Source: a virus (taxonomy: Duplodnaviria; Caudoviricetes). Taken from it: a stretch of 64,000 nucleotides of DNA. The stretch lies in the IMG/VR virus record IMGVR_UViG_3300033068_001989, positions 143,752 to 207,751 of that record; one strand, written 5' to 3'. The notes under the pieces were generated by a model that saw nothing but the letters and a program-made list of their open reading frames with translations, was not told the origin of the DNA and searched no databases. Numbering within the stretch: the stretch's first letter is position 1; each line of letters begins with the position of its first letter. A program made the position numbers and the translations under genes. Below are positions 36,828 through 43,803 of the stretch, one piece after another.

Positions 36828-38318
36828 TTATATAAATTTGAAGTCCTCGAGTGATCTAAGATACTCTAGATTGTAATTTTCCTTTAATTCCTTAATTTTC
36901 TTAGAATCTTTATCATCCACAATCGCAGGAACTGAATTTATTGTTTTTAATCCAACCGATACTGCTTTCGGTAATGGTCCCATTAGTCCAGATGATGATA
37001 ATTTATCTATAGTTTTTGAAGTTTTAGGATATTCCGTTGCTAAATCTCCTAAAAAATCTATCATTGGTTGAGCTATTGGTTTTATATAAGTTCCTACTAA
37101 TTTCTTAATAACATCCAAAGCAGGTCCCAAGAAAGACTTAAATGCATTAGCTATTATTTTAGCAGCTGGTGTAACCGCAGATTTTATGAAATTTGATATT
37201 GCTTTTGAGAATTTTTCAGGAAGTGATATAAGGAATTGAAACAATTCTGATATTTTTCCGCCAGCATAAATTATACCATCAAATACTTTACCTAAAAGGC
37301 CTTCACCGACCATCAGGAATATTGTCGATATTGTTGTCGCTGCAAGAGCAGATCCACCTGATCCCATTATCGCTCCGATGTTCTTTGCTGAATTTGCTCC
37401 AATTTTACCAACTAGTTTTGATGCTCCGTGTGCAAGAAAATGCTCTGTACTATGAGCAAATTGTCCAGCAAATGTACCTGCCCATTTTTCGGAAGCTTTA
37501 AGAGATGCCGTGCTTGCTGCCGCTATACCAGGTATTGCTGCTTTTGGTGCCATTATAACATCATTTAGACCAAGTAAGATGGAACAAGAACCAGCTATTA
37601 CTAGCGGTGCGCCGACAGCTAAACTTTTTTTGGTCTTTTCTAACTTGTTCATTTCAATTTCGGATAGATGTGACCACGCTTTTTTCATTTTATATACACC
37701 TATTCCTATTTCAATTGCACCTGCAATTCCAAGTAGAACCGGACCTAATATCTGACCAGCTGCTGGTATTAAGGGTGTAACTGCTGCAGTCATCTGTAGT
37801 ACTATTGCTACTGTTGTCCAAAAATTTGAGCTAGTTGTTATTTCTTTTATAGCAGATACTATTCTTTTTGTAAATTTCCAAACTCTTTTTGCACCATCGG
37901 ATATACTATTCCATATATTTGCACTCTTAGATTTAACTAAATCCACTGCTGATTTAGCATTAGATTTAACTTTATCCCAAGCTGCTGACATATCGTCAAG
38001 AATTCCTTCATTTATAGCATGCATCGTATAATTATCGATTATAAATGCTGATCCATTTTTAAATAAAACCGTTCCACTATCACTCTCAAGCATCAATATC
38101 TTCTCATCATCGTTGAACCAGTCTTTCTTATTCTCGTAAAGCATTCCTAATTCGTACATAGCATACGATTTTTCCAATAGCATCTCCTCGGACTCAGATT
38201 CAAATACCTTAGATTCAAACATATTAGAAAATTCTGGCAATGTTAATTTCACCATTATGTCTTCACTTAACTTTCCGAAATTGCTCGAGGAAAGAAATCC
38301 ATCATATTTATTAATCAT
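36828..38318 (-). CDS. hypothetical protein with hydrophobic Ala/Gly-rich helices (possible ejected or membrane-interacting virion protein)
   Basis: Several LLE/INE sites, hydrophobic segments, late-type motif at ~38340. Confidence 0.7.
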   Translation of the reverse strand: MINKYDGFLSSSNFGKLSEDIMVKLTLPEFSNMFESKVFESESEEMLLEKSYAMYELGMLYENKKDWFNDDEKILMLESDSGTVLFKNGSAFIIDNYTMHAINEGILDDMSAAWDKVKSNAKSAVDLVKSKSANIWNSISDGAKRVWKFTKRIVSAIKEITTSSNFWTTVAIVLQMTAAVTPLIPAAGQILGPVLLGIAGAIEIGIGVYKMKKAWSHLSEIEMNKLEKTKKSLAVGAPLVIAGSCSILLGLNDVIMAPKAAIPGIAAASTASLKASEKWAGTFAGQFAHSTEHFLAHGASKLVGKIGANSAKNIGAIMGSGGSALAATTISTIFLMVGEGLLGKVFDGIIYAGGKISELFQFLISLPEKFSKAISNFIKSAVTPAAKIIANAFKSFLGPALDVIKKLVGTYIKPIAQPMIDFLGDLATEYPKTSKTIDKLSSSGLMGPLPKAVSVGLKTINSVPAIVDDKDSKKIKELKENYNLEYLRSLEDFKFI

Positions 38319-38409: not shown

Positions 38410-39990
38410 TTAGATAACAATAGCTTCGATTTCTCTTAAAATCGCTTTTGGATCGATCTCAGCTTTTTTGATCATCTCGTAGATATCAGCAGAGTAACCA
38501 AAAAGTTGAACTAATTTGTTACCTGGTTTGAACATGGTTGTACCATATCCTTGAATATCAACAGTGTAGATGAAAGGTTCGCCATGTGCAGATTTGTAGG
38601 ATTGGAAAGAACTGTTTGTAACGATTCTATCACCACCTTGTAAATCTGATATGATGAAGATACGATCATATTTACCGCTTTTTTGTAAAGTTGAGAAGAT
38701 TGAGCCGAAGTCAGTACCATGACCAACTCTACCTTGCAAACTTAAACATGTATTTTTGATCGTATTGATGCTATCGCCAGGATTGTATCTGATACCTTCT
38801 GTTGTTGTCGCAAATTGGTATAAATCTGCACCGATACCTTTTGCTAACGTTGCTCCAATAAGAGCAGCTTTATCAATACAATGTTTGTTTATAGCTTTAC
38901 CATTCATGGTAACTCCATGTCCCATTCCGTGCATAGATCCAGATGTATCAATAACAACCGCTGTTCTGCCATGTGAGAATAATTCGAGCAAGTTTGGTAT
39001 TGCTAATTCGTAAGCTCTATTCAAAGCAGTAACGAATGGTCTAGACGCAGAAGCACTAGTTTCTTGTAAAAGAATCTCCAAAGCAATATCTATTTGGTGA
39101 GGAAAGACCAAAGATTTTCTGATCAATTTCTCATCGATTAAAAGCTCACACGCACCACTAACTAATTCAGAATTTGAACTTGTGTTGATGATGTTTCTTA
39201 AATTACGAAGCAATGCCAAGTAACCAATTTTTCTAGTTTTAATCAATTCAGCATAGTTGCTTTCTTTAGCTTGTGTCAATTCAACCTCTGCTTGGGCTTT
39301 AGTGATTTCACCGGATTTAACTTTTGCAGCAACTTCCTGTCCTGATTTTGTGTTTTTGTCCTCGACAGTGTTGAATTGTTTTAACTTACCAGTCATAAGT
39401 TCTTTGAAAACCCCCTCCATTTGTGGTGTTGTTGGTTTTGGACGAACCAAGTTAACAACATCAACAAGTGAAACTGCTTTCCCTTTACCTTGATATTTAG
39501 CTAATTCGTATGCATCTGCTGATTCTAAAGCTGCTTTAAAGCCTTTCTTCATTGAGTTAGGTAATGGTTTACCAGGATTGAAGTGTTGGTAAGCTGCGAT
39601 AATCTCCAATACGTCATCTAAACGGTATATAATACCACCAGTTTTAGCATTCTTATCTCTTTTTGAGAAGAATCTTCTACCTATAGCTGATCCGGATAAA
39701 TGTTTAACTAATGATACAGATCCGAAATGTGTTACTGATCTTTGACCAACAACAGTTCTCGCGTATACAAGAGCTTTAGCAACGAATTCGATATCTTTCT
39801 TGGACAATTCGTCGATAAGTTGAACAAATCTGTTCTCTCTATCTGATAATTTTTCATAGTATGAATTATCCAATCCTGTGGTAAGAATAGCAATTAATTC
39901 TAATTTTGGATCATACTTCACACCGGTACCACCTTGATGGTTTGTAACTGTCTCAACAGTTCTTTTTACTTTTTGATTGTAACGTGACAT
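38410..39990 (-). CDS. TROVE-domain Ro60/Rsr-like RNA-binding protein
   Basis: N-terminal TNHQGG, YELAKY, ALLRNLRN, C-terminal vWA domain with DTSGSM, GTDF, IISDLQ. Confidence 0.9.
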   Translation of the reverse strand: MSRYNQKVKRTVETVTNHQGGTGVKYDPKLELIAILTTGLDNSYYEKLSDRENRFVQLIDELSKKDIEFVAKALVYARTVVGQRSVTHFGSVSLVKHLSGSAIGRRFFSKRDKNAKTGGIIYRLDDVLEIIAAYQHFNPGKPLPNSMKKGFKAALESADAYELAKYQGKGKAVSLVDVVNLVRPKPTTPQMEGVFKELMTGKLKQFNTVEDKNTKSGQEVAAKVKSGEITKAQAEVELTQAKESNYAELIKTRKIGYLALLRNLRNIINTSSNSELVSGACELLIDEKLIRKSLVFPHQIDIALEILLQETSASASRPFVTALNRAYELAIPNLLELFSHGRTAVVIDTSGSMHGMGHGVTMNGKAINKHCIDKAALIGATLAKGIGADLYQFATTTEGIRYNPGDSINTIKNTCLSLQGRVGHGTDFGSIFSTLQKSGKYDRIFIISDLQGGDRIVTNSSFQSYKSAHGEPFIYTVDIQGYGTTMFKPGNKLVQLFGYSADIYEMIKKAEIDPKAILREIEAIVI

Positions 39991-40020
39991 GATTATAATT
40001 GTTTATTCGTTTATATTATA

Positions 40021-40402
40021 AAATTGAGTTATCGGAAAGATAAAGCATATAGACTAGGTCAAATGCAAGATCAACGTCAAAGACCTTCTTCTATTGCAAA
40101 GACAATGACAAAAACTAAGTCTCTTTCGCTAGCCAATTATCTGCCTAGTGGTAAAGATTTCTCTTTCTCTATGGCTTTCAGTAACTTGTCTAGCTATTGA
40201 GTTCTATCTCAGTTTTATTTATTTTTATAGAAGAAGCGGAGTGATGAGAGTTCCCGAAGGATCCTCTCTGATTGCTGTATATGATTAATAGTCATTTATC
40301 TTATAAGATAATGGCCAGGAGCCATTAATTAAAGGACTTTATCTCTCCGAATCAAAGCATCAGGGGAATCGGCTTTTGCTTACCCCTTCAGCACCTCAAT
40401 TT
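40021..40402 (-). ncRNA. ~380-nt structured RNA with hexamer repeats, upstream of TROVE
   Basis: Closing helices AAATTGAG/CTCAATTT and TCGGAGAGATAAAG/CTTTATCTTTCCGA, UUCG hairpin, GNNNTW array at 40049-40121. Confidence 0.65.
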
Positions 40403-40406
40403 ATTT

Positions 40407-41330
40407 TTATTTTTCTAGTTGTTTCAAAAATTCATCAACAACTGGTTGGAATCTAGGATCAATCTGAATCTTAAGATTTACAGCTTCACCGATTCTATTT
40501 TGACGCTCTGTTTCAAAATCAAGACTTGCTTTCTTGTAGTTTGCTAACCAAGCTTCTCTCTTTTTTGTGTATTCGTTCATCGCTAGTGAATTCTTTTCAT
40601 TAGCTTCTGCTTGAGCATCAGCATTGATTTTAGAAATCCTTGCATTTTCCTTAGTTACAGCATTCTTAACCTTCGATTTGAAATAATTAACTCTTTGCTC
40701 GTAACTTCTATGAAGAGCTGCCAACTCTTCGTGTGTTTTTAACAACTCCTCAGGTTTGTGATGCACATTAACTTTAATAGGAGTTTTCTTTCCTGTTTCG
40801 ATTTCCATAAACTCAAGAAGCTGAATTTTAGGTAATTCTGATCTCAGACGATCTAATGTTCCACCCTTATGAATAAATTGTCCTATATGTGAAGCATAAG
40901 CCTCCGCCTCGATGAATTCGTTATATTCATCAATTGTTAGTTGATTCCAGCCCCAATCCTCTGCAACTTGTACCAGAACTTCAGGTTGAATATTAGGTTC
41001 TCTTTCAGGTGAAGGATTTTGATCCTCATAATCAAAATATTCTCTCTTGATTCCGTTTATCAATTCGTCTTTGGCTTTTATATTCTCCATTAGAAAAGCC
41101 TGTGTTGCATGCAACCTTGCTTTACTTTTAAGAAGTTCAACAACATCTTTAGGTAAAGGTTTTGCAGCGGTTAAATTGTGATCCTCTTTGGATATCCTTA
41201 TCGTTTTTGATGCGTTATTAATATCTGCTAAAGCTGCAGTAATATCCTTTGATCTTTGGTTACAAAGATTCGATATAGATTGAGCTTGAGACATTGATAA
41301 TCCTTTTGATGCTAATGAATTTCTTTTCAT
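40407..41330 (-). CDS. hypothetical coiled-coil protein between the Y-like RNAs and TROVE
   Basis: 307-aa helical ORF; no family recognised. Confidence 0.8.
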   Translation of the reverse strand: MKRNSLASKGLSMSQAQSISNLCNQRSKDITAALADINNASKTIRISKEDHNLTAAKPLPKDVVELLKSKARLHATQAFLMENIKAKDELINGIKREYFDYEDQNPSPEREPNIQPEVLVQVAEDWGWNQLTIDEYNEFIEAEAYASHIGQFIHKGGTLDRLRSELPKIQLLEFMEIETGKKTPIKVNVHHKPEELLKTHEELAALHRSYEQRVNYFKSKVKNAVTKENARISKINADAQAEANEKNSLAMNEYTKKREAWLANYKKASLDFETERQNRIGEAVNLKIQIDPRFQPVVDEFLKQLEK

Positions 41331-41373
41331 GATTTCTAATTTTTGTTTTTATATTTTACTTTAAATTTCTACA

Positions 41374-41413
41374 ATAAAAAAGGGATTAAGTCGCTTGGCG
41401 TCCTAATCCCTTT
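41374..41413 (-). terminator. terminator-like hairpin after the Y-like RNA cluster
   Basis: AAAGGGATTAG..TTAATCCCTTT followed by a T tract. Confidence 0.65.
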
Positions 41414-41422
41414 ATAAAACTA

Positions 41423-41563
41423 ACAGAGAATGATGTAAGAAGTGTGAACAATTTAATGTCTGATTTTCATTCAGATGACTTAACCACTTGTCTAAATTTC
41501 CAGTTTAGCGGAAACTATCGGAGTCGAACCGATGTGCGATGTAACTTCTATACTTACTACTGT
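41423..41563 (-). ncRNA. Y-RNA-like element 3 (YrlA-type permuted order T - acceptor loop - D - anticodon)
   Basis: AGTAGTAA..AAGTTACATCG, ATCGGTTCGACTCCGAT, AGTTTCC/GGAAATT, D arm, TCTGA/TCAGA arm, CATTCTCT. Confidence 0.75.
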
Positions 41564-41571
41564 CGTATGTT

Positions 41572-41731
41572 TTATAAGGGAATGATGTAAATAGCGTTTT
41601 TTCTAACGTGCTCTACCAACTGAGCTATTCCCCCCAAATTTTTAATTTGTTTAGTGGGGGAAGATGGATTCGAACCACCGACACCGTGCTTTCAATGCAT
41701 ACGAAGTAACTATTTTACTGACCACTTATAA
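41572..41731 (-). ncRNA. Y-RNA-like element 4 (YrlA-type permuted order T - acceptor loop - D)
   Basis: AGTGGTCA..TAGTTACTTCG, GGTGGTTCGAATCCATC, TTCCCCC/GGGGGAA, TAGCTCAGTTGGTAGAGC, CATTCCCT. Confidence 0.78.
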
Positions 41732-41739
41732 TATGTTTT

Positions 41740-41874
41740 TTGTAAGGGAATGTTCGGGTGAGTTTCAATGGATGTTTTTGCTGGAGTTGAACCAGCTACC
41801 TAAAGTTTAAGAGACTCTCGCTCTACCAAGTGAGCTAAAAAACGAAGTAACTCATATTCCGTTACCACTTACAA
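41740..41874 (-). ncRNA. Y-RNA-like element 5 (normal D - anticodon - T order inside the conserved stem)
   Basis: AGTGGTAA..GAGTTACTTCG, GTTTTT/AAAAAC, D, anticodon-like and T arms, CATTCCCT. Confidence 0.75.
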
Positions 41875-41965
41875 TAATACTTTTTCAATGAACGTTTTGT
41901 GATTTTTATATGGAGGGAAATCCTCTTTGTTTCATAAAAATCAATATTTTTTTAAAATTTAACGA

Positions 41966-42121
41966 TCTTAGAGATATTGGGAAGGGAATGTTTAGAAAGG
42001 GATGCTAATAGTTTTTGCGGGAGTTGAACCCGCGACCTTAAATACCAAAAATTTACGCCCTACCAACTGGGCTAAAAAACGAAGTAACCTTTCAATTTAC
42101 CACTAACCAATATTTCTAAGA
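41966..42121 (-). ncRNA. Y-RNA-like element 6 (normal D - anticodon - T order)
   Basis: AGTGGTAA..AGGTTACTTCG, D, anticodon-like and T arms, CATTCCCT, extra 15-bp outer stem. Confidence 0.75.
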
Positions 42122-42130
42122 ACGTTTTTG

Positions 42131-42204
42131 TAGGCAAGGAGAGACTCGAACTCTCGACCTTCGCGGTATCAGCGCGACGCTCTAACCAACTGAGCTACCT
42201 GCCT
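42131..42204 (-). tRNA. tRNA-Ile(GAT)
   Basis: Cloverleaf. Confidence 0.95.
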
Positions 42205-42215
42205 ATTTTATTTCG

Positions 42216-42286
42216 AGATCCCGGAGGGATTCGAACCCCCGTCTTCAGATCCGTATTCTGAAATTCTTCCGCTGAACTACGGGACC
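42216..42286 (-). tRNA. tRNA-Arg(ACG)
   Basis: Cloverleaf. Confidence 0.9.
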
Positions 42287-42291
42287 TTATT

Positions 42292-42458
42292 TAATTCTCT
42301 GCGCCTCCATCTACAAGTAGCAATAAATGTGTTTATCCTTTCGCTGAATCGCCCTATAGACTCAGTTGCAGCTAATCAGCACTTAGATACCGCCTTCCTT
42401 TCTCACGGATTAAGGTTACACTTTGGAAATTCACCTCTACGGACACACAGAGAACTAA
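42292..42458 (-). ncRNA. ~165-nt rod-like RNA, possibly 6S-like
   Basis: Terminal stem TTCTCTGTGTGTCCGT/ATGGAGGCGCAGAGAA; length and shape fit 6S. Confidence 0.4.
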
Positions 42459-43692: not shown

Positions 43693-43713
43693 TTCGAAAT
43701 GTTTAAAAATTAG

Positions 43714-43803
43714 TGATCAGAACAGGAATCGAACCTGTGCTCTGCCGAAGATACCCCGATTTCTCGGATCGACGACCAAATACTCCCACTATATCATCTG
43801 ATC
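43714..43803 (-). ncRNA. tRNA-like RNA with an enlarged anticodon arm
   Basis: GATCAGA/TCTGATC acceptor, T arm ACAGGTTCGATTCCTGT, extra hairpin in place of the anticodon loop. Confidence 0.6.

What the first reader, a model, noticed from the sequence alone, without database searches (positions are those of the whole stretch)
40021..41330. Unknown coiled-coil gene plus a ~380-nt RNA with a 6-nt periodic array, between the Y-like RNAs and TROVE
Seen: the whole gap between the 307-aa ORF and TROVE is closed by long-range helices (AAATTGAG/CTCAATTT; TCGGAGAGATAAAG/CTTTATCTTTCCGA; CTTCTTCTAT/ATAGAAGAAG) and contains a UUCG hairpin. Its 3' side has two blocks of G-started hexamers: GACTTA GTTTTT GTCATT GTCTTT GCAATA, then GTCTTT GACGTT GATCTT GCATTT GACCTA GTCTAT (40049-40121). 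Inference: the periodic sites could bind an oligomeric protein such as the adjacent coiled-coil product, making this an undescribed RNP module linked to Ro.
Basis: partly seen in the sequence, partly recalled or inferred. Interest (0 to 1): 0.75.

Follow-up and report, generated by a model that had tools for sequence, protein, structure and literature searches.

The report
New phage RNA with hexamer arrays
The gap between the 307-aa gene and Ro holds a real, about 375-nt folded RNA with phased six-base repeats; it belongs to a widespread, undescribed family of phage RNAs that always follows this one protein gene, usually in phages that have no Ro at all.

Summary
Window 40024-40399 (minus strand) is a conserved structured RNA.

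On 40 homologues, 92% of cells pair, against 36-52% for slid controls. 40 of 54 pairs show changes on both sides, and 0 of 500 shuffles reach the observed values.
- The six-base periodicity is conserved as a pattern (NNUUUG). G sits at strict 6-nt spacing in two blocks of 4-5 and 6 units. I found no covarying partner and no conserved ORF.
- No Rfam 15 family matches.
- The RNA follows a homologue of the 307-aa protein, on the same strand, in 137 of 137 RNA-bearing loci with enough upstream sequence. The architecture persists behind very distant homologues.
- The protein has no Pfam, PHROG, NCBIfam, PDB or Atlas match. It has 837 clusters at 50% identity and is predicted to homodimerise.
- The module usually closes the phage tRNA island.

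The link to Ro is not supported. Ro follows only in the four closest relatives, and four phage genomes that are at least 94% complete carry the module but no TROVE gene.

Best reading (about 0.4): a scaffold RNA made from the 3' end of the protein's own transcript, showing phased sites for that protein. Rivals are a host cold-shock or S1-type protein sponge, a cis-acting 3' UTR, and an RNA-only assembly. First-stage readers of this scan noted the same RNA on other genomes.

The parts
40407..41330 (-). 307-aa protein gene (p307, P0001). Orphan family with no match to any known fold; predicted homodimer.
   Evidence: ORF. 2488 homologues among 90% clusters and 837 clusters at 50% identity. No Pfam, PHROG, NCBIfam, PADLOC, PDB, BFVD or Atlas match outside its own family. 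AF2 pLDDT 89, pTM 0.81. Dimer score 0.49 against best control 0.01.
40024..40399 (-). The structured RNA, about 375 nt here and 306-388 nt in relatives. It starts a few bases after the p307 stop codon.
   Evidence: nhmmer profile hits in 138 loci. Covariation. No Rfam family. Many G-U pairs place it on the minus strand.
40395..40399 (-). P0 5' arm.
   Evidence: Pair 40396/40027: AU 40, UA 36, GU 3, GC 2; 81 of 81 canonical.
40358..40392 (-). 5' domain: P1 (40390-40392 with 40358-40360), enclosing hairpin P2 (40383-40387 with 40363-40367) and P2a.
   Evidence: All 5 P2 pairs and all 3 P1 pairs show changes on both sides.
40337..40353 (-). P3 5' arm, a long-range helix that pairs with 40030-40045.
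   Evidence: 13 of 13 pairs with changes on both sides; 90-94% paired. The same helix is present in distant relatives, for example L224.
40237..40336 (-). Variable region. It includes the C(UUCG)G hairpin at 40246-40268.
   Evidence: Length and sequence vary between relatives. A hairpin of differing sequence sits at the same place (read by eye).
40228..40236 (-). P5 5' arm.
   Evidence: 8 of 9 pairs with changes on both sides.
40199..40212 (-). Near-invariant 14-mer CUGAGAUAGAACUC. It probably pairs with GAGACUUAG at 40115-40123 (P6).
   Evidence: Identical in all 40 sequences of A1. 96% paired but almost no variation, so covariation neither shows nor refutes it.
40128..40194 (-). P7 (40186-40194 with 40128-40136), enclosing a variable hairpin P8.
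   Evidence: 5 of 8 pairs with changes on both sides; 99% paired.
40097..40121 (-). Hexamer block 1. G at 40121, 40115, 40109, 40103 and 40097, each preceded by UU.
   Evidence: G in 84, 81, 82, 84 and 83 of 85 homologues. The two preceding bases are U in 82-85 of 85.
40047..40084 (-). Hexamer block 2. G at 40084, 40078, 40072, 40066, 40060 and 40054; it ends in the conserved GUCUAUAU.
   Evidence: G in 85, 84, 82, 75, 72 and 55 of 85 homologues. 430 of 509 G in this block are in phase. This is the only part that nhmmer still finds behind distant p307 relatives.

Best explanation
SHOWN. Window 40024-40399 (minus strand) encodes a member of a large, undescribed family of 306-388-nt phage RNAs.

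- Helices P0 and P3 bring the two ends of the RNA together and close a multi-helix core (P5, P6, P7).
- Two runs of NNUUUG hexamers lie between helices on the 3' side. One has 4-5 units, between P6 and the 3' arm of P5. The other has 6 units, between P5 and the 3' arm of P3.
- The RNA begins a few bases after the stop codon of a 307-aa protein gene, so it is most simply the 3' part of that gene's transcript.
- The gene and RNA pair usually sits at the downstream end of the phage tRNA array.

INFERRED. The RNA is a scaffold that presents phased single-stranded sites, about one per six bases, to a protein. The most likely protein is the product of the gene it is fused to, which is predicted to form a symmetric dimer and carries a conserved basic stripe. 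The two together would form a ribonucleoprotein particle made alongside the phage tRNAs. Ro is a late neighbour in this lineage and not part of the module.
For: Structure: 92.3% of cells pair, against 36-52% when partners are slid. 40 of 54 pairs changed on both sides, and 0 of 500 shuffles reach any of the five measures. RNAalifold and mutual information agree.

Selection: the RNA core is more conserved than the adjacent coding sequence (0.77 vs 0.65 nt identity at 60-80% aa identity; 0.68 vs 0.55 at 40-50%).

Periodicity:
- The in-phase G and the UU before it are kept in 55-85 of 85 sequences, while the bases between vary.
- GNNUUUG occurs 4.8 times per RNA, against 0.38 in shuffles.

Coupling to p307:
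- 137 of 137 RNA-bearing loci with enough upstream sequence have p307 upstream on the same strand. This includes loci found only through the RNA's 14-mer.
- About 100 of them start 2-36 nt after the gene.
- All 76 p307 loci with enough downstream sequence have the RNA.
- Every distant p307 relative looked up (profile E about 1e-33 to 1e-51) is followed by a 300-970-nt gene-free gap.
- The five distinct sequences held (L215, L221, L222/L223, L224, L225/L226) carry phased hexamer arrays.
- The GGUG...CUUU start is visible in L215, L221 and L224, and a long-range closing helix in L222, L224 and L225 (by eye).

Protein: confident model of a fold with no match. Homodimer score 0.49 with best control 0.01; the runs agree in at least 93% of contacts, and partner pLDDT is at least 86. 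That mark was reached by 20 of 30 proteins solved as pairs of one chain and 1 of 23 solved as single chains, and the counts hold only roughly because my own alignment was used. Conserved basic residues R208, R213, K218, K220, K222 and R231 lie on one long helix next to Y216/F217.
Against: No direct evidence that p307 binds RNA.

- It is mildly acidic (median pI 6.0) and has no recognisable RNA-binding domain.
- Constant adjacency could reflect co-transcription or a cis role rather than binding.
- Thermodynamic folding gives the arrays only average unpaired probability (0.41-0.46 against 0.40 overall). That they are single-stranded therefore rests on the lack of a covarying partner.
- A dimer does not by itself explain 4-5 plus 6 sites.
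- No expression data were available, so the RNA's ends and any processing are unknown.
Confidence: 0.4

Rival explanations
1. Sponge or recruiter for a host single-strand-binding OB-fold protein. The arrays would be tandem sites for cold-shock proteins (about 6-7 nt per domain) or for the multi-domain ribosomal protein S1. The phage RNA would titrate or recruit these proteins during infection, and p307 would have a separate or accessory role.
For: The most conserved unit is GUCUUUG, in block 1 and as the first unit of block 2. This equals the published preferred site of B. subtilis CspB, 5'-GTCTTTG/T-3' (PMC1904285). GUCUUU[GU] occurs 1.14 times per RNA against 0.06 in shuffles. The 6-nt pitch fits one OB-fold domain per unit; that is my own knowledge, not tested here. 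Leaders of p307 genes are A-rich and lack a Shine-Dalgarno sequence, a context in which S1-type recognition matters; this is inference.
Against: The host is unknown. The CspB preference was measured on DNA from one Gram-positive species. Most units are only U-rich variants of the consensus. This reading does not explain why the RNA is never found apart from p307. No cold-shock-domain gene is in this record or in five related phage records, so any such partner would have to come from the host.
Confidence: 0.2
2. Cis-acting 3' UTR. The folded RNA would protect the 3' end of the tRNA-p307 transcript from exonucleases, end transcription, or control decay or translation of the p307 message. The U-rich G-phased units could serve, for example, as RNase E-type sites. 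No stable particle would form.
For: The RNA starts directly after the stop codon, leaving no room for its own promoter. In many loci the last tRNA lies 25-150 nt before p307, which suggests one transcript. An intrinsic terminator follows within about 100 nt in 22 of 83 loci. Closing helices at the very 3' end would block 3' exonucleases; this is inference.
Against: About 330-380 nt with 11 helices, an invariant 14-mer and strict 6-nt phasing is far more than end protection needs. The RNA core is more conserved than the gene it would serve. Pairing between the arrays and the p307 leader is no better for native than for swapped pairs (-11.9 vs -12.2 kcal/mol).
Confidence: 0.2
3. RNA-only assembly, as shown for ROOL and GOLLD. 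The RNA would multimerise, the arrays would make contacts between or within RNA copies, and p307 would be only a syntenic neighbour.
For: ROOL and GOLLD are large ornate RNAs of phages and prophages, often near tRNA islands, and form homo-oligomeric cages (bioRxiv 10.1101/2024.12.08.627333). This RNA also sits at tRNA islands.
Against: No sequence or model match to either family. It is about half their size. Those RNAs have no obligatory protein gene, whereas this one does.
Confidence: 0.1
4. One reading: an RNP module functionally linked to Ro and the Y-like RNAs.
For: In this phage Ro starts 34 nt after the RNA with no terminator between them, and Y-like RNAs lie upstream. Ro may therefore be co-transcribed here.
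Against: Ro is adjacent only in L001 and L003-L005. It is absent next to the module in L002 and about 70 other loci. It is absent from four genomes at least 94% complete that carry the module.
Confidence: 0.03
5. The hexamers reflect coding: a decayed ORF or a small hydrophobic or acidic peptide of the type V-F-D-F.
For: In-phase GNN-NUU units read as an open frame by construction. One distant relative (L215) has a GTG-started ORF of about 56 codons over its array (by eye).
Against: - The longest sense ORF has a median of 26 codons across 85 RNAs.
- The two blocks are 12 nt apart in 33 RNAs and 13 nt apart in 41, so no frame is kept.
- In the window, the frame of block 2 has a stop three codons upstream and no start codon.
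- The would-be third codon position is as conserved as the second, for example U in 85 of 85.
- The antisense 58-aa ORF at 40024-40200 is not conserved.
Confidence: 0.02

Closest known systems
ROOL and GOLLD RNAs (large ornate RNAs of phages and prophages)
   Same: A large, intricately folded non-coding RNA of phages, typically at tRNA islands, with unknown function (for the published description; for this RNA).
   Different: No match to their Rfam models. About 330-380 nt, against ROOL's roughly 580 nt (from my own knowledge) and the more than 800 nt of many GOLLD RNAs. Always fused behind one particular protein gene. Carries phased hexamer arrays, which as far as I know those RNAs lack.
trp leader RNA wrapped around the 11-subunit TRAP ring (Bacillus); more loosely the CsrB/RsmZ sponges for CsrA
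   Same: Works like: an RNA offering many short, regularly spaced single-stranded sites to a multi-subunit protein. The description of TRAP and CsrB is from my own knowledge.
   Different: TRAP sites are GAG or UAG triplets with 2-3-nt spacers in a 5' leader. CsrB sites are GGA in hairpin loops. Here the unit is NNUUUG at a strict 6 nt, held inside a closed scaffold downstream of the candidate partner's own gene. The partner is unrelated in sequence to either protein.
Preferred binding site of the cold-shock protein CspB (5'-GTCTTTG/T-3')
   Same: The best-conserved hexamer units read GUCUUUG (PMC1904285).
   Different: That preference was defined for single sites on DNA oligonucleotides. No natural tandem array acting on cold-shock proteins is known to me, and binding was not tested here.
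Ro60 with Y RNA / YrlA
   Same: A protein gene next to its structured RNA partner in the same locus. Ro and Y-like RNAs flank this module in this phage.
   Different: This RNA has no match to YrlA or Y RNA and occurs mostly in phages with no Ro.

Membership tests
Any Rfam 15 family (including GOLLD, ROOL, YrlA/Y RNA, RNase P, tmRNA) | Match to the family's covariance model at or near its gathering score | tested here: not met
   No family reaches its gathering score in the gap. At E up to 10 there are only chance-level hits (sno_ncR3 at 17 bits, TeloSII at 15 bits). No relevant hit for the homologues in L009 and L224.
YrlA / Y RNA (Ro partner) | Constant co-occurrence with a Ro (TROVE) gene | tested here: not met
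   Ro is adjacent in 4 of about 76 loci. No TROVE gene in four complete or near-complete genomes that carry the RNA.
TRAP-type leader array | GAG/UAG triplets separated by 2-3 nt, in a 5' leader | tested here: not met
   The conserved unit is UUG with G every 6 nt, 3' of the gene.
CsrB/Rsm-type sponge | Many GGA motifs, mostly in hairpin loops | tested here: not met
   The array columns are G plus U-rich with no GGA. The only conserved GGAAGG is the 3' arm of helix P5.
Protein-coding sequence or decayed ORF | A conserved reading frame with start codon and codon-like substitution pattern | tested here: not met
   Median longest sense ORF 26 codons. A 12 or 13-nt spacer shifts the frame between blocks. 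The would-be third positions are invariant.
Structured non-coding RNA (general) | Helices maintained by compensatory changes beyond controls | tested here: met
   40 of 54 pairs changed on both sides. 92.3% paired against at most 51.7% when slid. 0 of 500 shuffles.
Tandem cold-shock-domain binding sites | Units matching the CspB preference GUCUUU(G/U) | tested here: inconclusive
   1.14 exact matches per RNA against 0.06 expected. The other units are U-rich variants. Binding cannot be tested with these tools.
p307 in a known protein family or fold | Significant profile or fold match | tested here: inconclusive
   No hit in Pfam, PHROGs, NCBIfam, PADLOC or PDB sequences. Foldseek against PDB finds nothing at E <= 0.001. 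Best VIA Z is 7.7 on generic helical bundles. Atlas and BFVD return only its own family.

The most novel reading that the evidence does not exclude
A new class of phage ribonucleoprotein. A protein of unknown fold assembles, as a dimer or larger, on two phased hexanucleotide arrays held out by a 330-380-nt scaffold RNA encoded in the 3' end of its own message. The particle is made together with the phage's tRNAs and acts on tRNA supply or host translation.
Probability: 0.3. Interest if true: 0.85.

Novelty: new variant of a known kind. Interest (0 to 1): 0.75.

Why it matters
Large structured RNAs of unknown function are rare. The phage ones known so far (ROOL, GOLLD) have no known protein partner. 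This is a third large RNA class at phage tRNA islands, and it comes with two handles for experiment: a gene that always precedes it and a simple phased motif that can be mutated. It is common in environmental phages, from genomes of about 160 kb to more than 400 kb. It could show what such RNAs do during infection, and it gives one of the many abundant unnamed phage protein families a testable role. It also corrects the local reading: the Ro/Y-RNA cluster of this phage was inserted beside an older, independent module.

Tried and rejected
- **Rfam.** No family in the window at the gathering threshold, in 39900-42400 at E up to 10, or in the L009 and L224 homologues.
- **Cultured phages.** GenBank phages hold no DNA match for the gap, and only one weak protein match (24% identity, bajarodcaudo virus 1).
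- **Fold and family of p307.** PDB by sequence, Foldseek against PDB and BFVD, VIA-align wide, ESM Atlas by shape and by features, Pfam, PHROGs, NCBIfam and PADLOC. All returned only generic helical bundles or the protein's own family.
The G/A position covaries with the C/U of GCUUU (GC 19, AU 16), while the proposed partner C never varies. I prefer helix P1.
- **Arrays pairing with the p307 leader.** Native pairs are no better than swapped ones.
- **Partner for the arrays inside the RNA.** No high-scoring, mostly canonical column pair in the mutual-information scan.
- **Host identification from genome collections.** The only hits are phage contigs binned into unrelated MAGs.
- **Close relatives of a distant homologue (P0245) in IMG/VR.** None found.
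- **Phage-encoded cold-shock domain.** None in this record or in five related ones.
- **Covariance model.** Not built, because the full RNA exceeds the size that can be calibrated in the allowed time. I used nhmmer profiles instead.

Full report
**Setting.** The window is part of a 207,751-bp phage record estimated 73% complete. About 34 tRNA genes lie on the minus strand between 31.8 and 49.3 kb. On that strand the order is:
- tRNAs and Y-like RNAs (a weak YrlA match at 41604-41687, 31.8 bits);
- a 307-aa ORF at 41330-40407 (p307);
- a 416-nt gap at 40406-39991;
- Ro/TROVE at 39990-38410 (Pfam TROVE 3.6e-10, phrog_850 2.4e-32).

**Observation.** The gap folds at -100 kcal/mol, z = -3.3. The opposite strand folds about as well (z = -3.6), so thermodynamics alone does not settle the strand or whether the structure is real.

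**Relatives.**
- p307 has 2488 homologues among 90%-identity clusters.
- A profile search finds 837 clusters at 50% identity, nearly all about 300 aa.
- IMG/VR gave 80 loci.
- BLAST of the gap against these loci showed that its 3' 230 nt are 70-85% identical even where the protein is only 50-65% identical.
- An nhmmer profile found the full-length RNA in 138 of 214 loci held. These include all 76 of the first 80 loci that extend past the gene, and loci fetched only through the RNA's invariant 14-mer.
- In all 137 RNA-bearing loci with enough upstream sequence, p307 lies upstream on the same strand.
- In about 100 of them the RNA starts 2-36 nt after the gene. In the rest, small ORFs add 80-750 nt.

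**Ro is not part of the module.** Ro follows the RNA only in L001 and L003-L005. L002, whose p307 is 82% identical, and about 70 other loci lack it. Four genomes at least 94% complete, two of them with terminal repeats, carry the module and have no TROVE gene at all.

**Structure.** RNAalifold on 40 sequences predicted 41 pairs, 30 of them with compensatory changes. Mutual information on 85 non-redundant RNAs (under 96% identity) recovered the same helices and added the outermost one. I write RNA position i for window coordinate 40400-(i-1). The model is:

| Element | Positions |
|---|---|
| P0 | 2-6 with 373-377 |
| P1 | 9-11 with 41-43 |
| P2 | 14-18 with 34-38 |
| P2a | 22-23 with 28-29 |
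| P3 | 48-55 with 364-371, and 59-64 with 356-361 |
| Variable region with hairpins | 65-164 |
| P5 | 165-173 with 308-316 |
| P6 | 188-193 with 282-287, and 200-202 with 278-280 |
| P7 | 207-211 with 269-273, and 213-215 with 265-267 |
| P8 | variable hairpin inside P7 |

Counted on alignment A1:
- 92.3% of cells pair, against 36-52% with slid partners.
- 40 of 54 pairs changed on both sides.
- 0 of 500 shuffles reach any measure.
- P6 involves the invariant 14-mer and barely varies, so it rests on conservation only.
- Frequent G-U pairs, for example 12-16 of 40 at three P3 pairs, would be A-C mismatches on the other strand. This puts the RNA on the minus strand, the strand of p307.

**Hexamer arrays.** In the 85-sequence alignment G occupies strict 6-nt positions.
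- Block 1 has five such positions, with G in 84, 81, 82, 84 and 83 of 85 sequences.
- Block 2 has six, with G in 85, 84, 82, 75, 72 and 55 of 85.
- The two bases before each G are mostly U, in 66-85 of 85 apart from the base just before the last unit of block 2 (35 of 85). The two or three bases after it vary.
- In block 2, 430 of 509 G are in phase. GNNUUUG occurs 4.8 times per RNA, against 0.38 in shuffles.
- No column pair involving the arrays combines high mutual information with canonical pairing.
- Predicted unpaired probability is only average (0.41-0.46 against 0.40 overall and 0.07-0.09 in the P3 arms and the P5 3' arm). That the arrays are single-stranded is therefore inferred, not shown.

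**The arrays are not coding.**
- The longest sense ORF has a median of 26 codons.
- The two blocks are 12 nt apart in 33 RNAs and 13 nt apart in 41.
- The would-be third codon positions are as fixed as the second.
- The antisense 58-aa ORF of the window is not conserved.

**Depth of the association.**
- Representatives of p307 that match the profile only at about 1e-33 to 1e-51 are all followed by gene-free gaps of 300-970 nt.
- Where DNA was available, those gaps contain arrays such as GUCUUU GAUUUU ... GUCUAC.
- Several also show, by eye, a GGUG...CUUU 5' domain or a long-range closing helix. L224 has UUCCUAUUCAAAG with CUUUGAAUAGGAA.
- nhmmer still detects the array segment in L222 (E = 2.5e-9), L224 (8e-6) and L225 (3e-4).
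- The arrays are therefore the most persistent element of the family.
- The RNA core is more conserved than the adjacent coding sequence at every divergence level.

**The protein.**
- AlphaFold2 with 48 homologues gives pLDDT 89 and pTM 0.81. The fold has two helix, beta-hairpin, long-helix units followed by further helices.
- No family or fold match was found in any library (see Tried and rejected).
- Invariant residues include E143, H148, H154, H191, H200, H207 and E211; H190 is nearly invariant. This hints at a metal site, which I did not test.
- A conserved basic stripe (R208, R213, K218, K220, K222, R231) lies on the longest helix. Overall the protein is mildly acidic, with median pI 6.0.
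- The two-copy prediction passed: score 0.49, best control 0.01, at least 93% of contacts shared between runs, partner pLDDT at least 86.
- That mark was reached by 20 of 30 proteins solved as pairs of one chain and 1 of 23 solved as single chains. The counts hold only roughly because my own alignment was used.
- This supports self-association but does not prove it.

**Context.**
- tRNA genes lie within 4 kb upstream on the same strand in 59 of 80 loci, and downstream in only 9. The module usually closes the tRNA island, often with the last tRNA 25-150 nt before p307.
- An intrinsic terminator follows the RNA in 22 of 83 loci.
- The simplest reading is one transcript: tRNAs, p307, RNA.
- ROOL and GOLLD are likewise described as phage RNAs often near tRNA islands. 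This RNA matches neither model.

**Mechanism.**
- The strict gene-RNA coupling, the closed scaffold and the phased sites point to a protein-RNA particle, with p307 as the most economical partner. I put this at about 0.4.
- The best-conserved unit, GUCUUUG, equals the published CspB preference (PMC1904285). A host cold-shock or S1-type partner is a serious rival at about 0.2.
- A purely cis-acting 3' UTR (about 0.2) and an RNA-only assembly (about 0.1) remain open.
- Linkage to Ro and coding are essentially excluded.

**Earlier notes of this scan.** First-stage readers flagged what appears to be the same RNA on three other genomes. I reached the main conclusions from my own searches. One note's pseudoknot proposal did not hold up. 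Another note's remark that the gene closes the tRNA island did hold.

Noticed in passing
window 41331-41375 (minus strand) and the matching leaders in L013, L015, L044-L046: The 45 nt before the p307 start codon are A-rich and carry no Shine-Dalgarno-like GGAGG, both in the window and in relatives. This may reflect the host's mode of translation initiation.
   Followed up: no
window 41604-41687 (-): Weak YrlA (Y RNA-like) match, 31.8 bits against a gathering score of 69, just upstream of p307. A near-threshold tRNA-like hit lies at 41445-41501 (26.4 bits).
   Followed up: no
L023:4912-5105 and L012, L015, L017, L018, L020, L036, L042-L044: In some relatives one or more small ORFs (64 aa in L023) or 200-750 nt of extra sequence sit between the p307 stop codon and the RNA. 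Direct abutment is therefore usual but not obligatory.
   Followed up: partly
L009:5345-6178; L215:4454-4837: Homing-endonuclease-like genes follow the RNA in some phages. L215 has an HNH gene by precomputed Pfam. The 277-aa ORF in L009 has a GIY-YIG-like N-terminus by eye. This suggests the site just after the module is a hotspot for insertions, and Ro may have arrived that way in this lineage.
   Followed up: no
RNA hairpin P2 in many relatives (for example L006, L019, L044): The P2 stem often reads GGAGG paired with CCUCC, like a Shine-Dalgarno/anti-Shine-Dalgarno pair. The stem covaries freely (AGGGG, CAUGG, AGGGC and others), so this looks coincidental.
   Followed up: yes
window 43713-43803 (-): ARAGORN reports a tRNA with an undetermined, two-base anticodon. 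Rfam scores it 39.4 bits as tRNA.
   Followed up: no
L216-L220 (genome contigs): Contigs carrying p307 and the RNA are filed in MAGs named Omnitrophota, Paceibacterota and Gammaproteobacteria. They look like phage contigs binned into unrelated genomes and give no host information.
   Followed up: partly
window 36828-38318 (-): The 496-aa protein downstream of Ro has only weak, partial matches to tape-measure PHROGs (7e-5) and is 92% identical in L003. Its function is unclear.
   Followed up: no
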